Source of the DNA: Phoronis australis
Taxonomy: Eukaryota; Animalia; Phoronida
Assembly: GCA_002633005.1 (NCBI GenBank)
Contig: NMRA01000436.1
Location: forward strand, 270,127 to 334,126
DNA length: 64,000 nt
Reading direction: 5' to 3'
Under the pieces are notes generated by a model, which saw nothing but the letters and a program-made list of their open reading frames with translations, ran no database searches and was not told the origin of the DNA. Below are positions 37,704 through 61,700 of this stretch, piece after piece. Made by a program: the position numbers and the translations under genes. Each line of letters begins with the position of its first letter. The first letter of the stretch is position 1.

Positions 37704-40700
37704 ATGGCTCCATTCGCTGCAGTCATCGCAGTGGTAGTGGTTGGTGCGTTTATCGATGGCGGTGCTAAGATTGAAGCTTTGGAAGTCAACGGTCGTCTAA
37801 CGGACCACGAATTCAATGATCAGCAGCGCTTTAGTCACCCAGACACAGGAGAAGTATTGCACCTGAATAGTCAGGGAAAATTCAAGAATGTCATTAACCT
37901 GAACAGTGTTAAAGGTTTGAAGGTAAGTCTTCAGTTGCGGTATAGTTTTGATTAGACAATTACTGTCTGTATAGTTTTCTCCGATTTCTTTAAGTTTCGT
38001 TTTGTTCGAATGTGTACCAAACCTGTAACGCGGAAGAATTGGAGCCAATGGTGGTTCACACGCGTTAAAAATAGTCCGTGTATGATTCGGGCATTGTTTT
38101 TCGTATCGAGACCTTACCAGTACATACAATTCACAAGGTGATCTAAGGATGCTCACTAGTTATCAATATCACAATAATTTTGATGAGGTAACGGGCATGA
38201 TCAATGTGATTGTGCTAAACAAAAACACGTTTAGAGAAAATACCGCGTGACCTATTTATCGAGGCTTGACAACAAAAGTCTTTGTTAAACTATAAAGCCT
38301 GCTTGTATAGGAGTGTGCGACTAAATACACCTTAAACTTGTTGACGTAAAGGCAACATTCATGCAGGCGGTGTTCAGTCAAGCGATAACCATTTTATTAA
38401 ACGTATAACTTAGGTGAATACTAAGTTCAGCAACTGTAAGTCACTGCTTGTCGACCAGGAAGTAAAAATGTCTGTTCAGATTTGTGAAAGATGAGTTACA
38501 AACTTTACTTGAAATTTGCTAATAAGTTCCAAGGTCAGTAAAAGTGTCTACTTTTATTGAACTATTTCTCAACCTGAGTGCAACCGAAAAAAATTGTTCT
38601 GCTACCTAAATATAATTCATCTACATTGAACAATACATTAATCCACATGCCAGTTACAAAGTTCACTATTGCACATGTAGGTACATGTATTGTCGAGGTA
38701 ACAAAAAATCACACTTGCTAAGGTGTTGAATCTTCTTAAAATACGTACATGTATTTTAAGCTTTAAAAGCTTTGTTTGGAATGCTTGGGTTGGTGAACTC
38801 TACTCCTGAAGAAATGGATTTTTCATCGCAAAATTGTCATTGCGTTCTTTTCTTGATCAGTGAACAATACACAAGTCAGTGTAACACTGTGAAGTACATT
38901 TGGACAATACACATGTACGTGCAATACTGTGAAGCACAGAAGTTTACAGTTCATTCACCATATAACAATTGCGGCACTTAATATATATGTACCTAGGCCA
39001 GGTGTAGTCAAGGTGATTTATTTATGACTTCAGCCAATATTTCCTTTGTTCAATATCACCCATCGAGAACCATGTACCTAAATACAGGGCGAGTCTTCCG
39101 AAAAGTCACCTATTTTTTTTCATCTTTTTGTTTCAACAAAGGCACGAACTTCATATTTTGCAGACTCTCAATTTTATGTGCTGTGCTCATGCCGATGTTG
39201 AGCGTTTTTAATGCTTGAGTTTTCGGTCGTGTCCCGGAGGCTTTCATCGAGACTACATGTAGTTGCATTTAGCCCAAAAAGCACGAGGAGGCGTGAAATA
39301 ATGTCTATAAAGATACACGTACAACAATATGGCCTAGTTGAGGTGACAAGAGAATCTAATTGAGACAGAGTCTTACAATTATGAGTCCAAGCCAGGTGCT
39401 GAAAACGTACCCCATCATCATCCAAAAAGCACAATTCGATACGCCTTCGATACGCCTTTACAAATTGAAAACTACACATTAATCTATATGGAATACACCC
39501 ATCGAGTGCAAATTTGACACAATGCCGAAAAACGCTGATAGGCGACGTTGAATAACTTTTTAACATCGCGTGCTACAACGTTTGTTCGCTTTATAATTAA
39601 CCGCTTTGTGGGAAGGTTGCGTATCATAGCCCAAGGAGAATAACTCATTGTAAACGTTTGGAGCTTGTTTCGTGAGAGTCACCTTATAGCGCGAAGCAAA
39701 CTTGTATAGCCATTTTGAAGCTCAATTTTGTAAAATGGTTAATTTGCGACTGATATTTAAATTTGTAGCCACGCAGTTTTTGAAAAAACTGATACACATG
39801 TAGTTGTAAAATTCAGTAGTTTAACTTGTTTCAGTTTTGCTTACTCCGATAGGTACAACCCGCGTGTTTTAAGAGTTAAAAATTAAAGAACAATAATGCT
39901 TATTAACGTGATATTAAACACAAGGTGGTAGTCTATCACCACGCCACCTAGTGCGCATTAGGTTCCGAAGATGGCTGCTGTGAGTAGCCGAAACTGTCAA
40001 GGTATAACGTTTTGCTTGGTTGTGAAAATAAGAATAAATCCATGTGGCTACTGTCTTGTTTGCAGTTACATTGCTATTAAAACAAATCTGCATGATATTG
40101 GAAATCTCCAATCTGCTCAATGTTCCAAAACTGTGCAAAGTAACCAATTCAGACCAAAATATAAACAGTTGTAGACACTGGAGTGCAGTTAGATAAGACA
40201 GCAGTGTTTAAACCTACACAGGTATCGGCATTTCATTTGCTTTGGGTTGAAAATCTTTCTTATTTAGGTAATCAAACACAGGAATTCTGTGATCTGTCAA
40301 ACTGCAAGTGGGATTTCTCCTAGTCTCTATTCGATTTATCTTTTCAGAGAATAACATGCATTATGAACAAATTGTCGCTCGCATTTGAAGATTCAGACAC
40401 AGCCAGAAGCTGGCGGCCTGGTGACGTTATCATGGGAGACGAGACCTGGGAATGTCAGCTGGGTAAGCCGTTGTCTTAGCTTGAACGGTCTGTAGGAACT
40501 AAGAGACTGAGATGTTGATTTCAAACTTTATCGATCACAGTGAAACTTGGGACTCATTTAGATTACCAGTTTATTGGCAAGTCCGGAGCTGCGTTGAGTT
40601 TTGACTTCGTCAAAAACTGTGTCATGATTCACTTTCGAGGTTGTTTATGACGGGCCTAAATTTCAGGGGAACATTGCCGAAAAAGGTCCCAAGGGACATT

Positions 40701-43700
40701 GCTTCGACAGATAAATGACAGTGCAAAACGTGTTAACCAATCACTGAAATAAAAATCTCCCTTACATGAAAATGTGATCCGAAATGAATGTTTAATATTT
40801 TTGCAATTCTAAGAGGAGGAGACTTGACAAAGAGGCTCACAATCAGGGGTGAAGCGAAAAGTGCAGGTATTTGCAAAAGAAAATACGAGTTGCGACGAGA
40901 GGGAGGAAGGAGTTTGTGGAAGACAAGGTGCAAGTGTATGGAACACATATTACATGTAAACTTGTGTTTACTCCTAATATAAAAGTCGGCTTCGCCCAGT
41001 GGCAGGAATGCGAGCCGTCTCAGTTGTAAGCGTGCTTAGTGATCGATGTAGCATCCTAGGTGGTCTTACACTTTCGGCAACCGCCCTCAAATTCTTCCCT
41101 TCCCTCCGTCACGAAAATTTATCATCGTCCCACAAATTTTACTTTCTGTGCATCTTTAGAAATGACGCCCGAAGCACGTTCTTTGGCCTAAAACCACCAG
41201 CCAATTGAGCTAGTTGTAAGAAACTGCTGAATAATACCCGCTTTGCAAAACGACGAGTGGAATCATAATTTCACGAGGTCAATAAATAGTGATACATCAC
41301 CGATATGCAACAAGAATATTTCCCAGGTCTCGACTAAAATTGGCCAATCACTTCTCGTGAAATTGAAAAAAATTCTAGTGGAAGCAAAGTACTTTTAATT
41401 ATTAAAATAATTTGATTTAAGACAAATCTCGAGAAAAGACTCGTGGACCTTCATGTTCGTTGGTCTAATCACCAGCTCATCGCTGCGTAACCTTAATTAA
41501 ATTGCGTTTTGTCACTTTTATTTGTCAGGCCTGTCTCATGCTCCCGAAAAAGGAATTTTCCGAAAAATTGAAAGTATGAAGATCTTGGACGAGAAAAGAG
41601 TTGACCTGATTTCAACAGAGGCAAGGTAAGAAATTCTCCTCGACGAAACAGTTATGTGTACATGTATTAGGTTGATAGATCCACGAATGACGATGAATAC
41701 AAAATAATTGACCCTCGTTAGACATATGTGCATTTATGTATAACATTTGCTCGATTGTCACGACCATTGTCGCATCATGCATGTATACTGAAAAGGGCCG
41801 TGACTGTGGCTTCAGCTATATTTCACAGTGTAAAACGCCACAACAAAATAGATAAAGAGACAGATACAGACGGCTGAGAACAGTCATTTTCCAGAAAGAC
41901 GTCGCTCTAATCGGTTGGTGACACGCAGTTGGCTTACGCAGTAAACAGAGAACAGTCTGATTTTAATATACCAATACCGTCTGCATTCAAGCTTGTATCT
42001 ATGTCAATATAAATGTTACATACTTTCAGCTTGTTCGACATGTTTGAGCATGCGCACATCTTTTACCACCATACCCCAGCCAGAGGAAAACGTGCGGATG
42101 AAGACGCGGAGGCGCATGTTCGTACGAAAAGGGCTAGTTGGTTTGATGAACTTGTTAATGCAGGGAAAAGTAAAATACTGTCGAAGGTATTCCCCATCAG
42201 TTGGGGAGGGTCAAAAGGCTTGGTGAGAGACATCAACTATAATAATGAGACGGGTGAGGCGGCAGGCAAATTTGGCGTTGGAATGACTGCTACCAAGGAT
42301 ATTGGGTTCGACGCTAAGGAAAATAAATGGTTTGAGCACGAAAAAAACAAGGAAACAGATACTTCGAAATTTCATACTTCGTCTTCTGTTGTGTCACGGT
42401 TCGAGTGTGTAGCTTGTTACGCCTCATTCCATGCAGGCGTCACATTGTAAGTACTCATTAGCTGTCAAAAAATTGTTACGTAACATTGCTAAACAGTTCA
42501 TTATTCTCACCTTTACTCATTCAATTGTTCAAATCAAATAATCGTAGTTCGAGGAGAGCAAATTTTGGTATAGAGTTACGTTTTTTAGATAAAAAGGCGA
42601 CACAGAAGTTGTTTGTGCTTCGTGTTGCAGTTTCTATTATTCGTGTAAGTGAGACACTTCAAACATTTCACTGAATACGAAGCCAAAGTGGATGGTTGAC
42701 GTAAGCAAATCCGCATGGTTTAGGTCCGCTCTCCCTCGTGGAGGTAGAAAATTCAATGCATCAGTGGCCTACTTTTCAAAATGTTAGACAGTCCCCAGTT
42801 GATTGAAAAGGGAAGAACAATAGATTGCGCTGATTTATTTGCACTGTTCACTAATGGCAATCAATGACAAATAATATGTTAATTAGCCAGGACATGAGAT
42901 AGTGATTTTGTATGGCCTGCACTTGCCTCAGCTAATGTGTTACTACATCTTGGACAGAAAATGTTTCGCCAATCCTGAAATGAAAGGAATTTCTAGAGAA
43001 TGTTGAAGGTACAGTATGTATTAGCAAGACAATATCAAATAGGTTTACTTACTGTAGGAATGAATCCGAACTTAAAAACCTTATCATACCAGAATTATGA
43101 CGAACAAGTTGTTACCACTGGAATATTTATATAAGGGGACACAATTAGGGCGTAACAACAAAAATCTGCTGCAGCGGGCTTCACGTTTTGGGAGGCCGAG
43201 ATGGGGATAGCTGCGGAGACATGGTGAGTGCCACAACTTAGCCGCGTTACAACTATTCCCGCTCTCTTCGAACATGCAATTTTCAACAAATACCAGACAT
43301 ATTATGTTGACTGTTAATTCAACTGCATGCAATTCCTGTTTCCAGTGAATTGAAAATCCGACGAGATTCCAGGAACAGGATAATATTTGAAAAATACCTT
43401 CTTCAGGTGAGCAGGGTCAAGACACTTTGAGTTCGTGGAGCAATGATTGAGTCAGTGCTAAATTTCTATCATTGTGTTGGTGTTTTAAAAACTGTGATAT
43501 TTAATAGTTCTTGTTTTAGGCTACAATAAAACCAAAATGCAGTTTGCGACTTGCAGCACAAGATGCCTATTTGTATACAATTGCTACGTAGCGTAGTCTG
43601 TTTCTAAGATGACTAAGATGACTAAGGACATTTAACTGTTGCCTTTTGGCCAAAATAGTAGCAAGAGTCTGAATAAGGAAAAGAGATGAGAACAATTTTC

Positions 43701-46700
43701 AATCCTATGCATGTCCCGACATTCCGGAGCCACTCAAAGTCCTTCCGTTGAAATATCCATGTGATAGCGCATGGCCTTGCATCTCCATCATATAACATTC
43801 TTCCTGTACTCTCCTAAGCTACAGGCCGATGTGTTTAAAACATTTGGTCACCACCCAAAGCCGCCTAACTGGGTTGTAAAACCTAGTTATATCCTTGGTT
43901 ATGGTACTGACATCATGTTATGCATCATACGGTTGGTCATTGAAGTATACACTCATGTACAACCCGTCCTTAGAACAACTTCCAGAAGGTCGGCTATTCC
44001 AATATTTGTGCCGATTCAGTTAATTTTGGAACTTCTTTTTATATTTATCCAATGATACGCTGTAAGCGATGTTTAATTGTATTCATTAAAGTAACACGAA
44101 CCGTTATTGTATCCACAACAATAACACCATAGGTAAGGGTAACGAGGATAATTTGACGTGTTTCAGTTCGAAGCTGAAGCGAAAGTCAACTATGACGTGA
44201 GATTGACAGTAGAAGGGAAATATAGCATTGATGTAGCCAAACGGCTGTGGAGATCGGCTCGACCTTGGCCATTCAACATTCGTATTGGCCCAGGTATTAG
44301 CTTGAAGTTCACAATAGGAGCCGAACTGTGGCTTCAAGCCTCTTTTGAAGCTAATGCTGAGCTCTCAGTGACGACCGGATTTCATTCTTCCGCCAAATTT
44401 ACCGTGTGTAAGTGTCTTTTATTCACGTACGTATACTACATATGGGCGATAATTCTCCAAAATCCATTCGGGCTCTAGATAACGGGGGATAACGACTTCG
44501 CAATGTAATAATCTATATTTATCTTGGGAAAATGCACAAATGTATGTTGTGTTCGGAATTAAGCGATTCTTTACAAAATGGTTGTTAGCACTTTTTTATT
44601 CAAACACATTGACGATATGCGCTGATGAATTCTTGTTGTTGGACTCTGCTGTTTAGCTTCTGCACTGTTTGTGTACATAGAAGGTCTACATAAGGTCAAC
44701 TGATGTTCCAGCATAATATGTTCACAGCAAACCAAAAGCTGGGTTCCAATCCATCAACTTTTGACGTGTCCAGAATGCTCGAACCGTTCGTAGCTCACCC
44801 TCCAAGGCTTGACTTGAACGCAGATGCCACGGGGACGTTCAGTGTTTACCCAAAAGTAGGTTCATATTTTCAGTCATTAGAAGACTTTTCAGACACTGCA
44901 CACAACCCGCCCCTTTCCGATTTGAAGCGCACGGTCGGTTGGCCGTAATATTTAAGGTTAAGTTCAAGCCCATTTCGCAAATCGCTTTCAGCTGTACATG
45001 AGCATATTATGAGAATTTCAAATCAATTTAATCTCATTCAATTAGTTGTTTTTTGTTAAAAACTCAGTTATTGAAGGCTCTACCAAGCGGCACGGTTGTT
45101 TACGAGCCATGGGTTGTGAACCACCCATACAGTATAGCTTCAAGGTTCGGATTTTTTCTTATTGTTATGCCGCGTGAAAGTAGAATTCAGACTGTGAAGG
45201 AAAACGTTTCTCTGAATGCAAGATGAAGTGTGCGTGTAAGTAGAGTGTTTCGTCTACACGTTAAACGCTAACGCGAGATTCACCAGAGGTACCAAGTTCA
45301 AGCCCGCGCGTGCGTCGTGTTCAAGTAGAGAGATTCAGCTACACGTTAAACACGCGACTTAAGAAGATTTACATACTAGTCACTACCAAATACATGTCAA
45401 CCAATACGGAAATTACGCATTAGCTACGTATTTTTGCCATTTCTGAAGCGCCAATTGAAAATTCTACGTTTTTCCGGTAATTTATACATTTTTGCCGATG
45501 TTCATAATAAAAGTTCCAAACCTTAGGTTTGGCGTTTACTGGTAATTTCCTTTGTCGAAATAATTTCATATCACGAGCCTTGCTCGACAGGGCCAGGTTT
45601 CAGTTACAAAGAAAGGGGGGATCCAGGATTTTGAGTTAGGGGGGGGCACGGCTCAGGAATAACCAGAATTTTGCCATATGCGCGCGTCCAGCCTAAAACG
45701 TAGGGATGCAGGGGTCTCGAATTTTTGGGTTTGTGGACCTTATTACTCCTGCAATAAGTTGCCACGTCGGTACTTTTGACATTGCACGTCATAGGCAAAA
45801 GCAAAAAAAATCGTGTCAGCAGTTCTTGCGCGATGGTGCCGGTGTGCTTCGAAAACAACCTCCGAGCCTTCTGCTCAACAAAGCCGGCAAAGGCAATGCA
45901 GGCTCGAGGATTTATTGCAAGATTTGTGATTTGTTCCATGTCAAGGTTTTCTCCTCCAAATTTGTCTTCAACTTTCAGCGGATTTTGGTCTTGAAATGAA
46001 GGAGGTCATTCCATTTTGGTTATTTTTTCGAAAGCTCTACCCCACGCGCCGAAGCCATGCTCACTACAGTTTTCAGACTTACCTCCTTTAAACACAAATG
46101 GATTGACAGCTATGAGAAGTTTTCATGGATCTCAGTTACATTCCTGATTTCAGAATCAAATGCTTCCATTGAATAACGCCTGTTATTCTGATATCAGGGA
46201 CCCGTAAGTATGACTGTTACCAGCAACTGGCTGGCTGGTGATGACTGCATGCGTGAAACTGTTGTGGCAGCCGGGGGAGGCGGTAAAGCTACGACCGTGG
46301 TGACATGTTATGCCCCCGGTGAAAATGATCAACATACCAGTTACATAAATTCTAAGCCGTCATTTTCTTTTTTTACCAATAGTTGCTTTTTGGCAAAATG
46401 TACTGAGAAAAAGTTTGTATTTACATGTCATTAACAAAGTCTCAGTTATCACTGTTTGCTTGTAAAAAAGTATTCCTCTCATCTGCTTTTATGAAATATT
46501 ACCGAAATTGGGATGTTTTAGCACAAAATATGCGTATATTGTCGCCCTGTCACTTGTTACCGCCTTTTCATTACGTTTTTTCTTGGAAAAATCGAGGGGG
46601 TTCAGAACAAAAGTCACATTTCATACAATCAAGCAAGTAAGACACATTCACTAAGCTACACCATCTCTTGGATAGCTACATGTAAACGTTAGAGAAATAT

Positions 46701-49700
46701 TAAACAGTTGTATATATCAAACAATCTTTTACTATACATCGGCTATTAAACTTACGTTTTGCACTTTCGCGTGATCAGTGGTCTTTGCGTTGCTTCTACC
46801 AAGGTGACAAAACTGAAACTGAACCCGAGAATGTAGGTAAATATTGCGACGTAGTAAGCAAAGAAGGTCGACCTCACACGTTCGCGCTCAACGTGTAACC
46901 GAAACTCAAACAGAATACCCGCCCAAATCGTCAATTTTATTCCTGTAGCGGGCAAAGGTCTGAAGTTGTAATTCGGGGTCGTTTGGAATCATTTGCCTGT
47001 CATAAATACAACATAGCTTCAAAAATTGTTGCAGGTCCAAATCAAGCTCTGATATTTCCTCACACAAATTTCTTTGAACATTTATGTGCAGTTTCGTGTA
47101 TTTTTCCGTACTTCACCCGATGTTATCTGTGACCCACCCAAAGGTGACCTGCGGGTCTAGGTTATCTCCATCAACAGTAAATCACGTGACTGGCAATTGA
47201 AAACTTGTTTTAAACATCAGTGTTACACTACTTGATTCTTACCATTTTGATCAATTTAGTATCATTTTAGAAACTTAGAAGAAGAGTGGAACTTGAGAAC
47301 ATTAATGTGACTATCATTATGTAACGTCTGTTTTGGAATACCGACAACAAAACTGTGAAAGGTCGCGTTTTGACGCAGAATTCCGTTTTGAAGCGATTGC
47401 TGTTTAAAGAGCATTGACTCCTGATTTCGGTACACGATATCTTGAGAAAGACTCCACCAACTTCAACTATGTTTGATATTTCTGACAGGGCAACATCTTA
47501 TGGTCAAAATCACGTCTCTGTCTCTTATTCGGACACCTGGGAACGTTTATAATTTAAAATTAATTGTAGCATTATTCTTATAAAAATGTGTGTAAAGCAA
47601 TAAAATTAGTTGTGGTTAAGTAAACATCGGACATAGGTATTTAAAATCCCAGAAATGGCTTTGAGCCCTTTTATCAAGAGGTTTAGTACAGAAAGTTTGG
47701 TGAATGTTGGTAAATACATTACGCCCATCAATGTACAAAAAATTTACTAAACCATGTGATGACGTGACCACAAATTTGGTTGTTCGAGTAACTTTAAAGT
47801 GCCGAGTGTTGTTTTTTTTATTTAACACTAGTTTTTAGTTTAAATGCAGATTGTCCAAAAGCTGGCTTCAGAACTTTAAAAGACCGAAGGATATTCTACT
47901 CCTATGGCCGGGTCATCCTACACGAAATCGACGTCTTATGCGTTAGATTATGCTCTTGATGTTGATTTGCTCTTGTAGCCAAACTGATGAAGATGTAACG
48001 ACTTCAAATGAACTGTTTGTTGCTCGAGGTCATGCCTCTACTTTACGTCATCTTGTCATGGCGAGTCATTTTTGTGCGTTCAATATGGTCTCGATGAAAA
48101 ACAAACTGTAACGTTTTTTTCAAACCGAGAAATCTCTGCTCATCTAAGTAATGAGAAAGTTGAGACCAACTTTATTGCGGCAAGTTTTGTAAATCAAAGG
48201 TTGGATTCTTGGACAGAACGCCACCTTGAGAATGTTTACTTCATTACTGCGTTGCATATTTTACTACACCTGTAGTCCACAAATACCCCCAGTGCATGCA
48301 ATGCCTCGCGATCCTCCGCTAAAAGCATCGGACACCCTACATACTTGCACACGTATACTGTAAACCTACATCGAATGTTCAATAGTAATATGCACTAGGT
48401 CGTGTCAATTTTCCTTTTGTAGATTGAGATTGCAGCAGGGATTGCATGGGGTGTTTCAGAGTCAATATTTGAAATATCTTTAGCAGCACCTGTCGCTATT
48501 GGGTAAGTTTCTTGGTGTGTTGTGTGGATTACCGCATTCAAATTGCGACATAACGCTAGATTATCCCTTAGATTATAGGCAACAGATTCGCAACTCCGAC
48601 ATTTTCTTGGGAAATATCCTAGAGGAGGCGCCACCCTCTAAACAGAGCAAACTCAGCTTCCGGTTAGTGTGTTGTGACGGGAAATTCCTCCATGATCTAT
48701 TTTACTAGCACGTACAACGAAAAAAATGATTCCGGCATTGAAACGCTGTTTAAGGTCTTCCAACTCTAGAGTGCATAAATTTTGAGCGGCACCGGCGTGT
48801 ATTCGAGCATAAAATGAAACGCCTCGGTGGAGTATAAAACTGTTGATGAAATGCGAGATTGGTTTTTGAGTAAACCTGGAGGTTATTTCTTGAGTATTAA
48901 TATGATCTTTATTTCAGAATTTAACGTTTTACGAGCGTTCAATTTATTTAATTACGGATATGAGTTGAGCAAAATCCCCGATCCAATTCGCGACGAAATG
49001 ACTACAATTAGTAGACGAAGTACTTGCCGGAAGTAAAGCGTGCTATGTCTGCCAGGTGTCGCTAGTGTATAATGAAGTCACAGCTCATGCGTAAAATTAA
49101 TTTCGTCCTTTGAAAATATACGGAGTTGGCGTTGCATGATTATCAACACCGTTGTTTTCAGCACATTTGCCAATAAGATAATAGGCATCGAGTGACATTT
49201 AAAAAAATTCAAGTAATAATACGGATTTTTTCGAAATTCATGACACATGTAGAATCGTTTGTTATCTTCATCTTTAGACTTAAGCCCGAGTTGACCATGA
49301 CATTCAATTTACAATCATCAATGGGGTCAGCTATGGTTGGAGAATTCGATATGCTTCTCAACGTTGACATGAATTACGAAGTGCGACCAGTGCGATTCAA
49401 CCTTCACATCATTGGGAAGCCATGGTAAAACGCTTACAATTCTTCATAATCTTGTTATATTTGTGTTTTTGTAGACTGCCTGTTGGTTTTATGTACATCT
49501 GCACGTTATTTGTCACGCGCCATAGTACAGTATGATAATCAGTCTTACCCTATGAGTGATGTATGACTCGAGAAATTGGGCCATTCCTTTTGTGTTCTAT
49601 GTAGAAATAACTGACTAGTGCAATCATTACAAGCGCCAAACGGTGACGATTTAAAGTAACAAGCATTTTTTATCTGTCAGGAGATGGGATATAGTCCGAC

Positions 49701-52700
49701 TGTCGAAGACTGGGGAGTTGGCTTTGTTGAATAGACCACTGGAACTTGCTGTCGCCAACATAGTGACATGTCCAGCAACTTCGACCAAGCTATGTGACAA
49801 ACCAGGAACTCCTATAACCAGCCGATCCAGCAAAAGGTATCTTACTTACATTTTTAGGAGAAGCAAGACTCTTAAATTAACTATAGTTTACTAGTGTGGT
49901 TTCTACTCACAATATTGGCTTAAGCCAACCACTAATATTCAAGCATTTTCGCCTTCAGACTTGATGTAATGTAACATCAATTATTAAATGACGAATTGCA
50001 CTTGTTTTAATTGTGCCCAATGTCTTATTACCGAACCCATCGCCATAACACGTGCACGAGGTTTTACTCGTCGCCCAGACAGTAACAATTTGCCCGGGAC
50101 CTTTTCTAGATTGACCAAGGTAACGACATCGGGCATTGTGTTTGAAAGCAGCAACTCGAGGCTGATGGCAAGTGCAATGGCTAAGAAACTTCTTCGATTT
50201 TCGGAGATGATTAAGTACGTCGATGGATGGCAAAATCGTGAGTTGGTAGTTTTAATTTTACTCTGACACGCATAAGTCTCTTCTTGAAGATTAAAATCGC
50301 AGTCGTGAATGCACTAACAAGCATTTAGTAAAAATGAAATTGATTCTTACTGCCATTATAGAGTATTTGGTGTCCTCGATAAAAACACCCAAATCCAAAC
50401 AATACTCCTAAACAACTATTGCGATCTACTTTAGGAAAACTTGTTGTCAAGCAGGCGTGGAGTCCTACAGTTCAAGGTCTTGGCAGTGAGGGTAGAGAAA
50501 TAAAAGTCGGTATAACAAAACCATCGTCCGATTCCGAAGACACGTCTTCATCTACTGCCACGAAGTTAGGAAAGCTTGCCAGGTGTGCGCAATTCTGCGG
50601 AGTGCGTAAGGAATCTTCCGCAACCGTTATTGGAGTTAAGAGAGCGAGAACATTGAGCGATACAAACTACATCACGGGTATGTACGTGTAGATCAATCAG
50701 CAATGTAACTGCGATCGGTGGAACATTATAAACAGGTAGCATATTACACTTTAAAATGGTGTCAGCCAACCAACACCTAAGAAGAGGTGTGATTGTTGAT
50801 TGAAATCAAAGTGATTAGGGGCCCAGATTTGCTGTAAATTGGTGTGTTGAGACGTAGTGTGCTGGTACAAACAATATATGGGGTTTATTTCATTGGTCGT
50901 ACAGGTAAGTCAGACGGGAATGGGGTGAACTTGTGGCCAATTGTATTAGCCCCGTTTCGAAAAAAAAACTTAAAACATTTGGCTCTCGGCCTTAGTTTTG
51001 CTTTTAAATCAAAACTAAGACCGATTAAGTTTAGCGTTTAAATTGTTAGGTTTAAATTGGTAAATTCTAAAAACCAAAAGTGTTAGCAAAATTCTAAAAA
51101 TCAAGAGGGTGTTGTAGTAGGATAAGAAGTAAATGAAGCACAGGGCTTACATCACTTACTGTATATTAAACCAGCAGGGCTTACATCACTTACTGTATAT
51201 TAAACCAGCAGGGCTTACATCACTTATATTAAACCAGCAGGAAAATAGTTTCAATAGTTCAAACGGTTTCTAACCCATCCAGGCAGTTTCTGTGAAGACT
51301 TTACTAGCAAGACATTCATCCAAAGTTATAGGTCTTTATATATTAATTGTGTCTTTGGTGGTGTTCTAAAGTAAAAATGCAGGATGCAGTTACATTTACA
51401 AAAAAAAATGTGATAAAAAATTACTCGATTTGCATATCAAAAATTTGCAGATAAAGGCTTTGTGATAGATAAATTAGCAAAGATCTGTTGCTTAGCTTTA
51501 AATTGTACTGTGGACAGATCAAGGCTGCCGTTTTGGACTTTCCATAGAAGTTTATAAACTCGTTTTTTGTAAAGTAAAAATTAGTGATCCTGATACATGT
51601 TACCGTAAACAAAGACATTGGAATACATTTTGCGATTGACGGATTAATATGTTATTAAAGAATGTGGAATATGGAAAAAATATTCATCATATATGATTTT
51701 GAAGACCTGGTACAGAATTGTCAGTTTTCGAGAATGAAAAACAGGACAACTGAATTTAAAAGCGGGATTTCCGGACAAAAAGTGGGAAATCTTGGTCCAT
51801 GTCAACACGCAAAGAAGAAACGTTCGCCCAGCAGCGTTCTTTGTCAAACGGGAGACGTAACACAGAAAAGTGCCCGACTGCGGATTTTTGTTTTTTAAAT
51901 CGAATGGTAAATTGTAGGTGCCTAAAAAGCAAATGAAACGCCCCGTTTTTTCCTTTTAGTCGAACGAGTAAATAGGACCATGTCGCGAGTGAAATTACAA
52001 TAGTAGATGATGAAATGTCTATTTTACGTGTGTTAATAATCGGGCCATTTTGATGGTGTGGCGGGAAGGTGAGAAAAAATTAAGAAAATGGAAAAATCTA
52101 CCATGATCGGGACCGTTGGCAAATACAATATACATTGTATTATGTCAGCAGCGCAAAGTATTGGATTGGATTCTTATCCAAGGTAAATAGGTGAATTTTT
52201 CATTTTTTAAATTTTAGTTCACGGGTATAGGTACATGTAAATACCACGGATAACATTCACTGCTCAGAAATCGAATTACCAATAAGTATCTGGGCGACAT
52301 GTAAGTATTGCAATAACTAATTATCATAGGAATAATTGCAAAGAGTAATAATATATGTATACGGAGGTGATGTAACTACGCTCTGATAGAATATATTGGT
52401 CACGTGCGGATTTAACATTCCAGGTGTAGAGTTTTAGGGTCTACATGTACATGTAAGTTGAGACCAAAGCCCGATTTTGTGGTTCCCAATTTTCGTCTTA
52501 GACCTAATGCAGGTCTTAACTGATACAAATATTGGTATGAAAATCATATTTCATAAAATGAGTCCGTTCTTAGTTTAAAGACCATGTGCATGTGCTAAAG
52601 AAATTATCACGTGACTGTGAGGCTACTGCTGACAATGCTTGTTAGCCAACGGACCAATACTGTAGCTGAGTTGGATGCCACGGGTAATTTTTACGAAAAT

Positions 52701-55700
52701 TTCAGTTGTGTTTGCTCAAGGGAGTTTGCACGTCTGTTGAAATCATTATATTGTATACTAGAAATTATGACCGTTGTTGAAGTTCTATACGATCGAAGTT
52801 ATTTTTTGTGTTCTCTGTTGATTTCTTAGTTATGAAGACACCCAAGCAGAACAAGCTGCGTATTTACGAGTTGCCTGTCGGCCAAGGTGACGGTACAGTG
52901 ATACAGTGCTCTGACGGTACGGTGACCCTAGTTGACCTCGGCTCATCAACGTCGACATCCAGAGGATACTGGGGTTTCAATCATATATCCAGCTTTATGA
53001 CCAGAAGAAATATCAACGAAATTAAACACGTTTTCATAACGCATGGTGACCAAGACCATTTTAACCTTATACCTGGCTTGATTAACTCCGTAAACCGCGG
53101 TAAAATGAAAATTTACTACTCAGACGTTTTTAATACTTTGGCAAACACGTTTCCAAGAATCTCTACCAAACTCATTCGCAGGTGCACGGGGACTCGGTCA
53201 TGCGAGTCTTTCCCGTTATGTCCTGGTGTTGAGATGCAAGTTGTTGCGTCACAGCTCGGCTCCTTGCCAAACGAGAAAGGGATTGTACTGCGCTTAAAGC
53301 ACGGCGGCTTCACCATGTTGTTTGTGGGCGACGTCTCGGAGAAAGCGTCCTCCGATACCCTAAAGCGGTATCCGTCGGATATCAAGGCCGATGTCTATAA
53401 ACTTGGACACCATGGGAGTAAACGTGCCAAGACAAACACCATCAGTTTTTTAAACACAGTTCAACCGAAAATTGTAATTTCATCTGGAGACCCCTGGTAT
53501 ACCTATAAACACCCAAACTGCATATCATTAGAAACGGCTCTGGACTCGGGAAACATTTTAAGAAGTTCTGCATCAGGTTTTCGAATAAGAACCCAAACAG
53601 ACTTCACGTGCGGCGATTCGTCTGGTCGGGCAAACATTGACGGTTTCGGAAAAGCACTGTACACGCACGCCCCGACAGAAACTACGTTAAACCTTATAAT
53701 TATAACTTACGACGCTGTGACGAAAATAACCAAAGTCAAACCTCTGCAAATGTCCACAGACTCGCATTCTTCTGCCAGCTCGAGAGGGCGTCGTAGTACC
53801 GACTCAGAAATTGCTGACGACTCGTCATTTGGTGGCAGTGAGTATAAAGGTTTTTTATCAAATTCTGAAACATGCCCCACTTAAGAATAAGCGCAAGGCA
53901 GCACTGTTTTGAAAGGGCAGTGTTGTCTCGCATTCAGTTTGTTCTAGCATTATAGACTTGTGAACATCTCGAAAACGAGGTCATTTGGTACGATTTTTTT
54001 ATCAAACTAAGCTACTGTATAATCTTATTTTGTATACATATGCCAACCTGTCAGTTTGTGTCTTATTTCTCTCATAATGACTTAAGTTACACCGGTTCAG
54101 GTTGTGGAAGTACGTTTACATGTCCAGCTGATTTAAATACAACTGTGAACTGAAAAAATGACCAGTAGAGAACCACTTGTCAGAAATTGTCTAACGCTTT
54201 TAGATGCTAGGAATGAGACTAAACGTGTGTAAGGTTTTTCTCGTGAACGTCTCATCTCTTTTTCTTCATACAGATGATTTTTGAACCTCCCATCTTTATT
54301 TCCAATACAGGTGATTTCCCAGACATCAGTTGGTGCTCCAACGAACAACACCCTAACTTACAACCAGGCGAAAGTAGACCGCCTAGTAGAACTATGAACG
54401 AGGTGTGCAAACCCATTATACAACCGATAGGGCGAAGTGACGAAAGAGTTTACACGTAAGATATTGGCAAAACGTGGTTCACAATTATCTCGAACGTAGA
54501 CTCACAGTTTTTGTAGGCTCACACATGCATGCGCGTTCTCACTGACGTATTTTTTTTGCAATATTTTGCATTTTCATATTAACAAGTAGGCGCATTATGC
54601 CGCCATCCCTGTCCGTCCGTCCACCCGTTTGGGAGACCCCGGGATCGAATCCTGGCATTACTGGCTGACAATCTATTGTCGCACAAAGCTGTCTCCTACA
54701 CCTCCGAGCTCCATCTTACTCGTGAATGTACAGGTACGCAACGGAATGAATGAAAACCTGGGTATCATGCAAAAACCATTTCTGGGGCTGGGCTAGTTCA
54801 AAACAAACGACGCCATCTCATTTTGGGCGGACTTGATGTAGTCTGCGCAACTCGATTATACTTTTTTGATTACGTGTTTGACATCACCCTCTCCATCTGC
54901 AATACCGCTTGAAGAACAGTATTAAAATTTGGAGATGTGTTGGTGATGAGATGACCGACGCTGACGTTGATTTTCGGACGTGTATAACTACTCTGTCAGC
55001 CCGTATTGGAAATTTTATTTTTGTTTGCGTTCACGGCTTTATTTCCTTTGCCCTATGCAATAAATGTGTTCCTATGGAGATGGCAACAGTTGACGGCCAG
55101 TTTCAGACAATCCAACAACAGCTGTGCTCCCTAGTGGCATTACGTTTGCCCTCTTCAGTGTTTCCTAATGCTTTTTCAAGAAATTTGGCAAAAAATTATA
55201 TTATAAAGGTGACAGCTCCTTCCCTTTTGTGATAAATTTGACGTATTCTGCACCAACTAGTGGCCGTTTGAATTATTTGTTTACTCTCTTTTTGTCGCCA
55301 CCTTCTGCACTTGCCCAACCACGCGAAGGATGATTATGAAAATTGGCAGGTGTGTTCTTACTGACAAGAGTATGACTGACGTGGATTTTCAAACGGGTCC
55401 AACTACTGTAGTGCCCCACAATGATAGTTTTCGCATCTATGCCTCTATCTTCTTAGTCCCTTACGAGATAGTTTTGAAATTTTGCAAATGAATTCCTATG
55501 AACTAGAAATTAACACCCCTAGAGGCGAACCGTTTGCGGTTCGGTCGTGGGCGCATTGCAACGCTTCGCGTTGCACTTGTATAATGTTATTGTTATTGAT
55601 TGCGTTTATTGTTGGCGCCAATGTTATTTTTTTGTCATGTTATCGTTATTATCATAATGATTGATGATGCTGATGTTACTACTGCTGTTGGATAAAACTT

Positions 55701-58700
55701 TTTACAGCTGTCTATGGACCATGGAATGTAAATAACATAAATGTCATGGAATGTATTGTCATCTGCGTGAATCAACTTGCTTACAAAATGCGGAATGAAA
55801 TGTGTTATTTTCTCGTTGCTTGGCGACATCTAATTTTGCATAGACAGATCGCCGGTTTTCAAGTAGGCCTACTATTCCGGGTCAGTCACGATCAACGTCA
55901 TTGCCAAGTTGAAAAATAAATGAGACACCATAGACAGAGGCAATCTGTGTATGTAAGGGCGATAACCAGTCTTATTCAAAATCCGCCAACTGCAGTATTT
56001 GCCATGTTGTCTATGAGCACCGACAGAGGGCGCAGAAACTAGTCAGTCATAAATCCTCAGTAAAAGCCAAGAGACTCTGCAAAGTCGGAAATTTTTTGTA
56101 GTCAGTTCCAGGAGTGTGATTTTCGGACATCTAATTAATCACCGAGATAATACATGTAGACGGTGTCCATTATCTAACCAAAGTGCATTTTTCAGTTTGT
56201 ATTACTACCGCTTTGACGACGTGGTGTTTGGGAATGGAAACAACTCGTGTGATTCAGTGGAAGACGATGACATCGCAAATATGTGTGCTAGCAGGGTGAT
56301 GGCGTTTCGGCTTGCATTTCGACTAAAGCGTTTGGCGTTTTTTGTCGCACAACAGTGGAATGGTAATACTTGTACTTTACTTTAGAAAAACAAAAAGGTA
56401 CTGAAGTGTTTTAGTTTCTAAAAAGCAATCAGTTACCACTTGATTGCTTGAAACTTCGAAACGAAGAAACCTTCAAATATTTAGGGCAAGGTTGAATCTT
56501 TCCTTTAAAGGTCTTAAAAACTGAGATTTAATTTTAACGCTTTAGACGAGTAGAGTCAAAACCTCTGTCTGTAACTACTAATCAATCCAATTTAAGTATA
56601 AAGTGTTTCAGAGCAATGATACGGAATTTGGTTCTCGAATACATGNNNNNNNNNNNNNNNNNNNNNNNNNNNNNNNNNNNNNNNNNNNNNNNNNNNNNNN
56701 NNNNNNNNNNNNNNNNNNNNNNNNNNNNNNNNNNNNNNNNNNNNNNNNNNNNNNNNNNNNNNNNNNNNNNNNNNNNNNNNNNNNNNNNNNNNNNNNNNNN
56801 NNNNNNNNNNNNNNNNNNNNNNNNNNNNNNNNNNNNNNNNNNNNNNNNNNNNNNNNNNNNNNNNNNNNNNNNNNNNNNNNNNNNNNNNNNNNNNNNNNNN
56901 NNNNNNNNNNNNNNNNNNNNNNNNNNNNNNNNNNNNNNNNNNNNNNNNNNNNNNNNNNNNNNNNNNNNNNNNNNNNNNNNNNNNNNNNNNNNNNNNNNNN
57001 NNNNNNNNNNNNNNNNNNNNNNNNNNNNNNNNNNNNNNNNNNNNNNNNNNNNNNNNNNNNNNNNNNNNNNNNNNNNNNNNNNNNNNNNNNNNNNNNNNNN
57101 NNNNNNNNNNNNNNNNNNNNNNNNNNNNNNTCCTTGAAAATACATGTGACCTGGAGTTTGAGCAGCAGAGTTGCGCACCCTGGTGGTTGAGTCATATTGT
57201 TCTTATATAGGTTTTCCACGGTGAGGACGCTTAGAATTACGTGACTTTGGTTAGATTTTTCTCGCCGCGAGACGGCTGACACACAGTAATTACAGGTGGC
57301 ACTTGAACAGCAATAAACAACTGACAGTCTATAGTTACAGACGTATGTGTTAGTAAGGACTGACGTAATGTTTTTTCAGGCACGCTGCACGTTAAGGTGA
57401 AAGAGGCATGGCGAGAAAAGACAGGGTTGGAGAAGATCCGTGACAAAAGTTTACATTATGAAGGAAGGTAAGAAGGCGGAAACCTTTTGCGAAGTTTGCC
57501 GCAGCTGCTTGTGTAAAATAATTCCTGTTCTTGTAGTAAAGCATGGTTCTGATCAATCTTCCACGAGAAATTGGCAAAATTTCCTCGGATTACTTCGATG
57601 TCCTGTGGCAAGTTATTGATTTTCCACTGTATGACGTTGAAGTAAATGAGCTGTAAACTCATTGTATTAAGAGATAGACCATCGTCATCTCTATTGATAA
57701 GTATACGGGCCCGCTTCATTTCATTACAGAGCTCTGAGAATAGGACTAGTAGGTCGTCTGGTCACAAACACTGACGTGTCACTGCTCTCTCATCTGGCTC
57801 AATGTGCAGGTTTTGACTACGTCACGATCAATAACCACAAAGAGCTGGAACTATGTGGTCTTCTTCAGGAAAACGTTATTGGTGAATTTGTCTCATTTTA
57901 CAAGACAAGACTCTATGCAATTGCCGTACCGCCGTATTTGGAAGAAGAGTATGGTTATCCTGAGGCACTGGTGAACGAAACGAGGAAAACTAGACTATTC
58001 GACGGCATTGATGTGACCGAGAAAGTGTCAGACCACATAACTATTGGCGATATTGCACTGCCTGGAAAACGATTCTTCAGAATTGACCATCTTTTGGTTG
58101 AATGTCTCGAAGAGGTCAAAGGTGAAATGAGTGACGCTAAAATAATAAACCCCGTTTATAGAACGCTGCTGTTTAATAACCGCGACATCGATACAAGGCA
58201 CAGCGAAGAAAAGCACCGTTTCCACGCCGGTCAGGCCGCTGAGCTAAAACTGGCCGTTGGTTCTAAATTTACCCTGTTTGACTTGGCTAAAGTTGTGGTG
58301 CGCTCATGTTTGAAGACCTTCAACTTCGAGCAGCTGGTTCTAGGATTAGGAGCTCACCAACATCACCTGTACCTTGACTTGCGACCCCAAGAAATAGGAG
58401 AAAGTCGACGATTGGTGGTGTGGGAAGCAGAAAATACCAAATGGTTCAATGAACTGCAACCTTTTGCAAGGGCAATAAACCACGGTAAAGTACATGCATT
58501 GCGTCTGTTCCCCATGGCCTGAAAACTCTAAAAATCATCTTTAAATCTCATGTGCTAATAATTCTTCCAAACAAATTTGTGTTAAAATTTCAACGTTCTC
58601 AAAGCAATCTACATATGCCTGCATAAATTATTTTTCACCCTCTAGAACCTATATTTGTTCCGAATTGTGTAAATTTGCCCGCACGTAGTGACCTGCCAGT

Positions 58701-61700
58701 TTCAAAGATTTATTGGTTACTGTGTCCAGTTTTACAGAGTTATAAAGACGCTTGTTTTCTCATTGCCGCTTGTTGTATTCATTGCAGGAGGGCCTCTCAT
58801 TGATCCTGTCAGTCTGGCGCATGCGTGTAGGGAGCCAACACATGGTGAAAAGTTTCCTTTTATCTCTGAACGATCCAGCTCTGAAAGGTATGATCCTCGT
58901 GGCAGCCACTTTATAAAAAAAAGATTGGCCCTACTTGTTTTTAATTTCGTCTTAACTTCTTCTTTGACCTTTGAAACCAGTCATATGTACCATAATACGT
59001 GAACATTGGCAATATGATATGCATCAAATCGTATTTAATTTCTCCTATCCCAGATTATGATTGCTAGTTACTGTCTTACAGTTCTTGCATTTGACAACAC
59101 AACATTTGTTTTTCGGGACTACAGTGCAAGTAATGTCTTACTGAACGAATGTGAATGCATGCACTTGCGCAAATACACGCACACATGCACACGCGCGCAC
59201 GTGGCAAACACGCACTTGTATGTGTATGGTTTGTATATTTGTGTGTTTGTATTTATGTATGTATGTGCACGTATATACGGATGTAAGTATGCATGTACAT
59301 GTATTGTTTTATATGTGTATGTATAAGTGTAGATATAGATGACTATAAAGATGTATATGTAACACTCGCTATTTTCAGGTCCTGTCTTAACGAGGATGCT
59401 GGTTTTTGTCAAGAAACCAAGAAAATTAGACAGCAGGCGGTCAAAGATTTCATGAAGAAACTTAAGCGACTTGTCCGAGTTTCATCTCAAGTTCGTAGCT
59501 CGATTGAAACGTGCTTTGTCACGAGTTGTGGATGCGGAGTTGGCTTTGGTAAGACCAATAGCATGGTCGGGTCACTACCATGTCATTAGACCCGAAATCA
59601 TGCAAGTAGGTGACTGTCAAGGTATGGGAGAAAATTATAATTCATGTTCACCCTACCGTGAACTTATTACTTTTAAATTCAATTTTGTGGTTCAGCCTTA
59701 GGTACCTGAAATATACGAACTTAATGACAGCCACTACATTAAGACAATTGACACCTGTTTAGCGCTTGGATAGGGTTATAGATGGAGTTTTGACATAGCG
59801 CCCTTTCGTACCAGACGTTTGACTTGTTTGCATCCTGCAGCAGTAAAACAATCACCAGGCATTCTAGTTGTAACTGTACGGAATCTGAAGGTAAGATCAA
59901 CCCCGCGTTACTATACATGTTTGTCTACTTGTTACTTTAGGTTCTGCGTGGGAAAAAAAGATAAGGTCGTGCATGGAATTCATTTCCGATTACATCGAAT
60001 CATCCACTGTACCATTCGCCAAGCAAGACAAAGCTGCGTTCTTCAACACCGCTAACGTAAACTCTAGTGTTCATTCTCTTGCTTGTGACAATGGGCTTTG
60101 TCTGGAAAATAACCAGCTATATTCTTTGCTCAGTAAGTGTCAGATTAGGAAACAAAATCGTTAAGCGAATTGCTAATCAATGTTGGTTAGAAGAAAAGCT
60201 GCTCAGACTTGCTCATTTCGGAATTAACTTTTAATGCCCTACCGGAGTGTGTGAGATAGTTTAAATCTAGTGGCATCACTTGGAGATAAACATTCTAATC
60301 CACCCACTATTATTCATTGTGTTACTTGTAACTCTTGTAAACGACCTACATGTACCAGTATACCTTCAAAAATAAAGAATAGATATGTATTTATGCTGCT
60401 GGTACTATCTAATATACACCGGATAAGAACATTGGACATATTGAAAAAGCTATTCAGGCTGTCTTGGTCGCAGTTTCAAATTGATGTTCCTAAAACAATT
60501 TGACGAGAAATTCTTAAAAGACTAAATGTATGCATAAAACATACAGTCAGTAAAGCTCCAAACAGATGTTCAATTTAATTTGTATCTGTCTGGGGACAAA
60601 CTTGAAGACGTTCACCATGAAAAAATACTACGGGCCACATTTGATTAGAGTTTGACTTGGTCTAAACAGATACCTTATAGTCTGCCAAAGATTTGACAAA
60701 ACTGGGTCTTTTGTCCAGAACTGAATGTTATATATTCATTGAATGACAGTTAATAGTTTACTGTCCATGTATTACGCCACACTTCACAAACTCTAGTACT
60801 AAATGTATGCTCTGTCTTTTCTTCTGCTCTTGCGGCAAAAATGGAAAAACTACAGAAATAGGCTGCCAGATTTTTCTGAGATTGTCCATTTGACACACCC
60901 TCTAATCAAATGTTTGCAAATCTGCTATGGCTACAAATGCACAAGTTGTATCATTTTTGGCATACAAATATGTTTTCAAATATCGACGTCATGAAATGCA
61001 AATCATATATCTCATGCGGTTATTGTCACAATGTTAGAACTAGGTATGCTTTATCTGATAATTGTGTGATGTCTCGTGTTATACCTATAGTATTTAGCAA
61101 ACATTTTATTTTTGAGTCTGTCAGAAAATGGAGCATTTCACCACAGAACATCAACTGCATGTTTTAGTACTTTCAAAAAAATCTTTTATGTATTCTTTAA
61201 CTACACTAGCCTCTTTACTCTCTCATTTGTTTATAGCCAGACATTTTTTATGTTCAATTCTTAATAATAACCATTTTAACTTGAATTTATTTAATTTATT
61301 CACACGTTTATATTTCCTGTAGTTGTTTATTCTTTTGTTTTCAAAGGACCGTGTGGTAAATAAGTTTTTAAACGCGTTGTATCCTGTATAAAACCTATAA
61401 GTAAAGTTACAAGTATCTAATCTAATCTAATCTAATTTCACATCGAAATTGTGGTAGCGTTTCTAAAAATCTGATAGGATTGAACACCTTGAAGCACGTG
61501 ACCCACTTTTTGATTGCTATCATTTTACACGATTCTAATTGCATACTGGCCGTGTTTTTTTCCTTTCAAGCGCAAGAATTCAGTATTTATTGAAGCGAGA
61601 CCATTCTGGCCCACGGTTCTATTGAGAATCACCTACAAATGAAAAGTATGCACGGGGCTACTATCTTCTCGTTTCAGAGCAACTGTTGATCACAACTTAC

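What the first reader, a model, noticed from the sequence alone, without database searches (positions are those of the whole stretch)
52830..53837. ComEC-type MBL domain on one intronless, symmetric phase 1-1 exon: candidate horizontally acquired, exon-shuffled cassette
Seen in sequence: the whole catalytic domain is a single 1008-bp exon, the largest in a gene where most exons are 60-250 bp. It is flanked by phase-1 introns, so skipping it (50677>54311) keeps the frame and gives a Hedge-Hedge protein. The metal-binding and catalytic motifs (THGDQDH, VGD, GHHGS, HP) are intact. Established knowledge: 1-1 symmetric exons are the typical units of animal extracellular domain shuffling, and this MBL subfamily is mainly bacterial. 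Inference: a bacterial gene was captured and inserted between two Hedge repeats, and it may act as a swappable effector module.
Basis: partly seen in the sequence, partly recalled or inferred. Interest (0 to 1): 0.8.

Follow-up and report, generated by a model that had tools for sequence, protein, structure and literature searches.

The report
Hedge protein carrying hexaxilin-like enzyme exon
An animal gene for a large, likely secreted protein carries an intact bacterial-looking enzyme domain on one exon that the RNA reads always show spliced in; the domain belongs to an old eukaryotic family already seen in sponges and worms, so it likely came from another animal gene rather than straight from bacteria, and it is predicted to cut DNA or other phosphodiesters outside the cell.

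Summary
RNA reads confirm a 1008-bp exon 13 with phase-1 introns on both sides, encoding a ComEC-type metallo-beta-lactamase (MBL) domain with all catalytic residues intact.

The interpretation mostly fails.
- No exon-skipping joint appears in three RNA runs (32 and 65 inclusion reads).
- Lingula LOC106182095 has the same MBL in the same place.
- The domain groups with sponge-type, cysteine-rich secreted MBLs (100/99), not with any of three bacterial groups.
- This family is published as 'hexaxilin-like' (Shimizu 2024): sponges, jellyfish, annelids, Lingula, Oikopleura and marine protists.
- A stand-alone Capitella member already has its MBL on one 1067-bp exon behind a phase-1 intron; Oikopleura and Oopsacas members have introns inside the domain.

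Best reading: an old eukaryotic MBL exon was shuffled into a Hedge-containing secreted proprotein. It likely acts as a Mn2+ phosphodiesterase or nuclease freed by furin-type cleavage, not by splicing. The family's ultimate bacterial origin stays open.

What seems undescribed is the architecture: degenerate Hedge, MBL, Hedge, then a possible M15-like domain. Moderate interest.

The parts
37704..37922 (+). Exon 1, ATG and predicted signal peptide
   Evidence: Most hydrophobic stretch of the protein; aligns with the Lingula N-terminus from residue 29. Lies outside the stretch laid with reads, so this junction is predicted.
40348..49836 (+). Exons 2-10: N-terminal region of no known family (about aa 74-553), with RXKR sites at aa 165 and 178
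   Evidence: Junctions from exon 2 onward shown by reads; conserved in Lingula; no Pfam hit; Atlas gives only unnamed bacterial clusters at 0.90-0.92.
50110..50677 (+). Exons 11-12: degenerate Hedge-like domain 1, no zinc ligands
   Evidence: Junctions; weak colinear profile match; no Pfam or PDB hit.
50678..52829 (+). Phase-1 intron
   Evidence: 32 junction reads; phase.
52830..53837 (+). Exon 13, 1008 bp: hexaxilin-like / ComEC-type MBL domain plus linker
53039..53059 (+). Motif II THGDQDH (H71, D73, D75, H76; ComEC-type HxDxDH)
53270..53515 (+). Motif III N147, motif IV D167, GHHGS (H193, H194, S196), motif V HP (H227)
53783..53794 (+). RGRR, predicted furin-type site at the 3' end of exon 13
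   Evidence: KKR at the aligned place in Lingula, RGKR just after the MBL in P0123.
53838..54310 (+). Phase-1 intron
   Evidence: 65 junction reads.
54311..57870 (+). Exons 14-16 and start of exon 17 (end approximate): Hedge domain 2; HYEGR His kept, following Asp ligand replaced by Arg
   Evidence: 37 bits against a profile of 14 bacterial Hedge domains; weak consecutive Pfam HH_signal matches, E 0.15 and 0.066.
57730..58484 (+). Exon 17, 755 bp: possible peptidase-M15-like pseudo-enzyme domain
   Evidence: Atlas PF08291 score 0.93, 183 of 256 features shared; own profile only 2.3 bits against shuffle maximum 2.1; no Pfam, PDB or phage hit.
58788..63903 (+). Exons 18-22: C-terminal region of no known family; stop at 63901-63903 if exon 22 is terminal

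Best explanation
Exon 13 is spliced into every transcript the reads show and encodes an intact ComEC-type MBL of the eukaryotic hexaxilin-like family, likely shuffled long ago from a stand-alone animal gene into a Hedge-containing secreted proprotein, where it is predicted to act as a metal-dependent extracellular phosphodiesterase or nuclease freed by furin-type cleavage. Shown: exon structure, inclusion, catalytic residues, fold, clade and the Lingula orthologue. Inferred origin: stand-alone members have signal-peptide exon(s), a phase-1 intron, then one terminal MBL exon, so gaining a phase-1 donor in place of the stop would make the internal 1-1 exon. Inferred mechanism: the roughly 1700-aa protein is secreted and cut at basic sites (aa 178, about 554, 999) into an N-terminal part, a [Hedge1+MBL] enzyme and a [Hedge2+M15-like+C-terminal] part. 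The MBL would bind two Mn2+ as in ComEC and hydrolyse extracellular DNA or other phosphodiesters. The Hedge and M15-like folds lack full zinc sites and would be binding modules (bacterial wall or matrix glycans), pointing to digestion of, or defence against, microbes.
For: Inclusion 32 and 65 reads and no skip among all 10 joints listed. Residues equivalent to ComEC H598, D600, D602, H603, D700, H725, S728 and the motif-III Asn are all present. Model pLDDT 82.6, best fold match 9ic4. Lingula orthologue 30% identical over 1175 columns with the MBL in the same place. Window+Lingula 99/93 inside a 43-row clade 100/99 that holds Amphimedon and Sycon proteins; median 10 Cys against 2, and HPxC in 60 of 64 against 5 of 208. 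Three named members of my set (XP_013422193, XP_019857738, Sycon 70214) are listed as hexaxilin-like. Capitella exons 44+29+1067 give a phase-1 start. L003 and L007 show a scored phase-1 ATAG|G acceptor 18 and 21 codons before the domain; L006 has the same ATAG|G at 17 codons by eye. Five RX[KR]R sites against 0.85 expected; basic sites at about 178, 554 and 999 align with Lingula.
Against: No activity, localisation or cleavage was tested. The Lingula MBL has lost the HH of HHG (QY) and may be inactive, so catalysis is not conserved between the two orthologues. A tree with window+Lingula outside the other 41 clade rows is not rejected (AU p 0.255). Most clade members are unnamed; only Lingula, Amphimedon and Sycon carry names. 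L003, L006 and L007 come from one assembly and their acceptors are predicted. No paralogue lacking exon 13 was found, so insertion is not shown. Site 554 is SSKR, not a canonical RXKR, and one RXKR (1107) lies inside Hedge2. The M15-like call is marginal. Lingula exon structure was not seen.
Confidence: 0.55

Rival explanations
1. One reading: a bacterial MBL gene was captured directly into the intron between two Hedge repeats and serves as an optional, swappable module.
For: Intronless, 1-1 symmetric, in-frame skip possible. All PDB hits and most database hits are prokaryotic or look so. Conaco 2016 lists a single-exon Amphimedon MBL with top hit 'competence protein' as an HGT candidate. Family not found in choanoflagellates.
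Against: No skip joint. Same cassette in Lingula. Eukaryotic clade with Cys pattern. AU rejects three bacterial placements, though the groups were named after seeing the tree. Exon GC 0.46 and GC3 0.50 resemble the rest of the gene (GC3 0.46). Shimizu 2024 withdrew an HGT reading in review after finding protist members.
Confidence: 0.07
2. No insertion: a neighbouring MBL gene and a Hedge gene fused by read-through and accretion, and the 3' phase-1 intron is coincidence. The enzyme role is as in the best explanation.
For: 43% of introns here are phase 1 and three exons are 1-1. Hedge1 is very degenerate and the Lingula equivalent gave no profile hit. No MBL-less paralogue seen.
Against: Hedge-like domains lie on both sides of the exon in the window protein, and skipping restores a clean frame.
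Confidence: 0.15
3. The domain is a small-molecule phosphodiesterase such as a phosphorylcholine esterase (Pce/CbpE-like) acting on microbial or host surface glycans, not on DNA.
For: Pce is the next closest family by profile (E 6e-11) and fold. No OB-fold or other nucleic-acid-binding domain was detected in the protein. 13 of 64 clade members have Pce-type HxHxDH.
Against: This protein has the ComEC-type Asp in motif II and Asn in motif III, the two differences from Pce named by Silale 2021, and the Ser of HHGS that aids DNA binding in ComEC.
Confidence: 0.15
4. The MBL is a structural or biomineral scaffold like hexaxilin, patterning silica or phosphate mineral.
For: Shimizu 2024 propose this for bilaterian homologues including the Lingula orthologue. 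Lingula has lost catalytic histidines. Six Cys are kept.
Against: Hexaxilin-1 has lost several metal ligands (source alignment) while this domain keeps all of them. Hexaxilin-like proteins were never recovered from other sponge skeletons.
Confidence: 0.08

Closest known systems
Hexaxilin-like MBL-fold proteins (Shimizu et al. 2024, PMC10772126)
   Same: Same clade by shared named members, Cys pattern and N-terminal LPVGQGD motif; the Lingula orthologue XP_013422193 is listed there.
   Different: Most are stand-alone 330-480 aa secreted proteins. Here the domain is an internal exon of a roughly 1700-aa protein. In the parts read, the paper calls the Lingula extensions only 'long insertions'; 'hedgehog' has 0 hits in its main text and 12 readable supplements.
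ComEC C-terminal beta-lactamase-like nuclease (9IC4; PMC8579336, PMC12455585)
   Same: Fold (TM 0.63/0.78) and all named metal and substrate residues.
   Different: No competence channel, OB fold or membrane helices; 18% identity in the structural alignment; extra cysteines, likely disulfides.
Pce/CbpE phosphorylcholine esterase (2BIB)
   Same: Extracellular MBL of the same subgroup attached to binding modules.
   Different: Pce has His at the two positions where this protein and ComEC have Asp and Asn; no choline-binding repeats found.
Hedgehog and Hedgling-type Hedge proteins (PMC2362128, PMC6027127)
   Same: Signal peptide plus Hedge domain used as a module without Hog.
   Different: Two internal Hedge-like domains with incomplete zinc sites, no Hog, VWA, cadherin or transmembrane part detected, and an enzyme between them.

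Membership tests
Hexaxilin-like MBL family | Groups with the published hexaxilin-like sequences | tested here: met
   Clade 100/99 holds XP_013422193 and members of the clusters of XP_019857738 and Sycon 70214, all in Supplementary Data 1. The paper's protist, cnidarian and annelid members were not in my tree.
Hexaxilin-like MBL family | Six conserved cysteines | tested here: met
   Domain has six Cys at motifs matching hexaxilin-1 by eye. Five columns are conserved in 51-64 of 64 rows; the sixth (C118) aligns in only 15 of 64.
Hexaxilin proper | Hexactinellid protein with degraded metal sites | tested here: not met
   All ligands intact here; hexaxilin-1 lacks several.
Hexaxilin proper | Forms the axial filament of silica spicules | not testable with these tools
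   Needs proteomics or localisation.
ComEC | Competence channel and OB fold | tested here: not met
   TIGR00361 73 bits against cut-off 190, MBL part only; top hydrophobic windows are all in the signal peptide.
ComEC | HxDxDH, motif-III Asn, motif-IV Asp, HHGS, HP | tested here: met
ComEC | Mn2+-dependent nuclease activity | not testable with these tools
   Needs an assay.
Pce/CbpE | His at motif II position 3 and motif III | tested here: not met
   D73 and N147.
Hedgehog | Hedge followed by Hog/Hint domain | tested here: not met
   No Hint hit in the exon-wise Pfam scans (exons 2, 3, 5 and 8 were not scanned).
Hedgehog / DD-peptidase | Complete His-Asp-His zinc site | tested here: not met
   Hedge2 keeps His but has Arg for Asp; Hedge1 has neither.
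Hedgling | VWA, cadherin repeats, membrane anchor | tested here: not met
Shuffled symmetric exon module | Phase 1-1 introns at domain borders | tested here: met
Shuffled symmetric exon module | Relatives with the same flanks that lack or replace the exon | tested here: inconclusive
   Only one orthologue found. Searches hit the candidate ceiling, and one search missed even the Lingula protein.
Alternatively spliced cassette | Skipping isoform in RNA | tested here: not met
   No 50677>54311 joint at 3 or more reads per run, in 18-19% of each of three runs, tissue unknown. Skipping under roughly 15% is not excluded.

The most novel reading that the evidence does not exclude
This is the first recognised member of a third animal Hedge family, beside Hedgehog and Hedgling: a secreted antimicrobial or digestive proprotein in which zinc-less Hedge and M15 folds bind bacterial cell wall and deliver a furin-released ComEC-type nuclease. 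The same enzyme family was later silenced to become the silica-patterning hexaxilin of glass sponges.
Probability: 0.2. Interest if true: 0.75.

Novelty: new variant of a known kind. Interest (0 to 1): 0.4.

Why it matters
It corrects an apparent bacteria-to-animal capture into an old eukaryotic family. It also supplies a catalytically intact member with which the ancestral activity of hexaxilin-like proteins can be tested, which is open in Shimizu 2024. The Hedge-MBL-Hedge layout, shared with a brachiopod, adds a use of the Hedge domain outside Hedgehog and Hedgling and bears on whether Hedge began as a cell-wall-binding DD-peptidase fold.

Tried and rejected
No whole genome is held, so paralogues could not be searched.

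Homologue searches: the full-length search with the Lingula protein returned only itself among 7988 scored candidates. The 'longer' search gave 51 hits, nearly all bacterial ComEC, and missed the Lingula protein. Both are insensitive.

Structures: a single-sequence fold of the Lingula protein was unusable (pLDDT 31.6). Self-BLAST found no internal repeat. An hhalign of Hedge1 against Hedge2 failed on a script error.

C-terminal region: by eye it recalled ADP-ribosyl cyclase (recalled, not from a call). Pfam, PDB and a single bacterial PF02267 match gave no support, so this was dropped. A recalled DUF7029/DUF7223 likeness of the N-terminus got no Pfam hit.

Viruses: no viral relatives of the MBL clade or of exon 17.

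A Myxococcota-type donor, suggested by the shared LPVGQGD motif, was rejected: those ComECs fall far away.

No listed holder run was on record as RNA; the raw-read runs were laid instead.

Earlier-findings look-ups showed nothing (one search gave an error).

L001 and L002 look like transcripts, so they say nothing about introns.

Full report
1. Observation. The exon runs from an AG at 52828-52829 to a GT at 53838-53839 and encodes 335 residues without a stop. Raw RNA reads of three runs of the same species, plus contigs of a fourth, confirm the exon chain from 40348 to 63631. The joints 50677>52830 and 53837>54311 have 32 and 65 reads. Exon 1 (37704-37922) and the end of exon 22 lie outside the stretches laid and are predicted. 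The spliced product is open for about 1700 aa with an N-terminal signal-peptide-like stretch and no other membrane helix. Both introns around exon 13 are phase 1, and skipping would keep the frame. 18 of 21 bounded exons are 60-250 bp. However, 9 of 21 introns are phase 1 and three exons are 1-1, so symmetry alone proves little.

2. Is it skipped? In one search all 10 joints over 50400-62050 were listed and none skips exon 13. The listing threshold is 3 reads from 2 starts per run, 18-19% of each run was read, and the tissues are unknown. Skipping above roughly 15% is unlikely in these samples; rarer or tissue-specific skipping is not excluded.

3. The domain. All 6 PDB sequence hits are ComEC. 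The model (pLDDT 82.6) best matches 9IC4, then PNGM-1 and Pce. In passages read of PMC8579336 and PMC12455585, ComEC differs from Pce by Asp in motif II and Asn in motif III, and uses H598, D600, D602, H603, D700, H725 and S728 with two Mn2+. The window has equivalents of all of them (H71, D73, D75, H76, N147, D167, H193, H194, S196, H227). It works like the ComEC nuclease domain but is not ComEC, having no channel domain.

4. Relatives. Among 1.84 billion representatives the best hit is Lingula anatina LOC106182095. It is 30% identical over 1175 columns from the N-terminus through the MBL into Hedge2, so the arrangement is old. Its HHG motif reads QYG. A FastTree of 272 domains placed the window in a 64-member clade (0.985) rich in signal peptides and cysteines. 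Of 30 representatives looked up, only Lingula, Amphimedon (2 clusters) and Sycon carry organism names. An IQ-TREE run of 82 rows (41 of the 64 plus two locus proteins, the 30 best-scoring outsiders and 9 bacterial locus proteins; bootstrap not fully settled) gives window+Lingula 99/93 inside a 43-row clade at 100/99. Forcing the pair into each of three outside groups is rejected (p 0.008, 0.017, 0.018; groups named after seeing the tree). Placing the pair outside the other 41 rows is not rejected (p 0.255). So it belongs with the clade, but its depth in it is not fixed.

5. The family is in print. Shimizu et al. 2024 (PMC10772126; abstract, section 7, Supplementary Data 1 whole, part of Data 2, passages of the review file and source alignment read) define hexaxilin and hexaxilin-like MBL-fold proteins related to ComEC. 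They list this Lingula protein, Amphimedon XP_019857738 and Sycon 70214, plus jellyfish, annelids, Oikopleura and five marine protists; choanoflagellates had no hit. They favour inheritance from protists and dropped a lateral-transfer reading in review. Conaco et al. 2016 (PMC4784904; passages and supplement rows read) list a single-exon Amphimedon MBL whose top hit is a Clostridium competence protein as an HGT candidate. The deep origin is therefore unsettled, but it predates this gene. The main Supplementary Information of Shimizu (Notes 5-6, Fig. S3) was too large to read and may discuss the Lingula extensions. Ten literature searches showed no description of a Hedge-MBL protein, and the Lingula accession and locus name matched no main text. 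Most listed papers were seen only as listings.

6. Exon history. From CDS coordinates in that supplement, the stand-alone Capitella gene has exons of 44, 29 and 1067 bp, so its whole MBL sits on one exon after a phase-1 intron. Oikopleura has five introns and Oopsacas hexaxilin-5b two inside the domain. Three genomic loci from one metagenome assembly have an in-frame stop, then an ATAG|G at phase 1 lying 17-21 codons before the domain motif (14 in the window), then an unbroken terminal MBL frame (scored as acceptor in L003 and L007, seen by eye in L006). The 5' phase-1 border thus looks inherited from an animal gene, and only a 3' donor had to be gained. This is inference: no MBL-less paralogue was found, and the searches for one were insensitive.

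7. The rest of the protein. A profile of 14 bacterial Hedge domains scores aa 1086-1184 at 37 bits and aa 571-656 at 2.3 bits, with shuffles at most 1.5. Adding Hedge2 to the profile lifts the latter to 11.8 bits (shuffles at most 4.7 of 500), while the Lingula equivalent gave no hit. Neither domain has a full zinc site. Exon 17 resembles peptidase M15 by Atlas (0.93) but only marginally by my own profile. Five RX[KR]R sites occur against 0.85 expected. Basic sites at 178, 554 and 999 align with Lingula sites at 179, 548 and 997, and the last lies inside exon 13. That furin-type convertases cut RX[KR]R is established knowledge, not from a call.

8. Mechanism and verdict. Most likely a secreted proprotein is cut to free a Hedge1-MBL enzyme that hydrolyses extracellular DNA or related phosphodiesters, with the zinc-less Hedge and M15 folds as binding modules, in microbial digestion or defence (0.55; every step after splicing is inferred). 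The finding is a new variant of a known kind: the family and the orthologue are known, and the architecture appears undescribed. Interest 0.4.

Noticed in passing
window 27217-27530 and 29313-29432, minus strand: Exons of a neighbouring gene; the 29313-29432 exon reads [13 protein letters not shown], recalled as a sodium-solute symporter (SLC5) motif. Suggests an ordinary animal gene neighbourhood.
   Followed up: partly
window 56647-57130: Assembly gap (run of N) inside intron 15; reads join 56362>57380 across it, so no constitutive exon is hidden.
   Followed up: yes
window 62120-62740: Imperfect tandem repeat in intron 21 that creates spurious ORFs.
   Followed up: no
window 44444-44522, 45615-45723, 48569-48644: Intronic stretches with many divergent partial reads on both strands, likely dispersed repeats.
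   Followed up: no
P0123: Unnamed close relative with no signal peptide and RGKR right after the MBL; may be the internal MBL exon of a third orthologue.
   Followed up: partly
Rhopilema EP00795_P000726 (Supplementary Data 1 of PMC10772126): Hexaxilin-like domain at residues 983-1258 of a longer jellyfish protein, a second possible fusion.
   Followed up: no
L030-L043: 15 of 401 genomes of one bacterial phylum carry Hedge-like domains, many inside 550-840 aa open frames.
   Followed up: partly
P0166: Amphimedon model fuses a hexaxilin-like MBL to a G domain, perhaps a gene-model artefact.
   Followed up: no
window 53507: One-base deletion in 4 of 30 reads of run X4 (2 starts) inside exon 13; possibly an error or a rare allele.
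   Followed up: no
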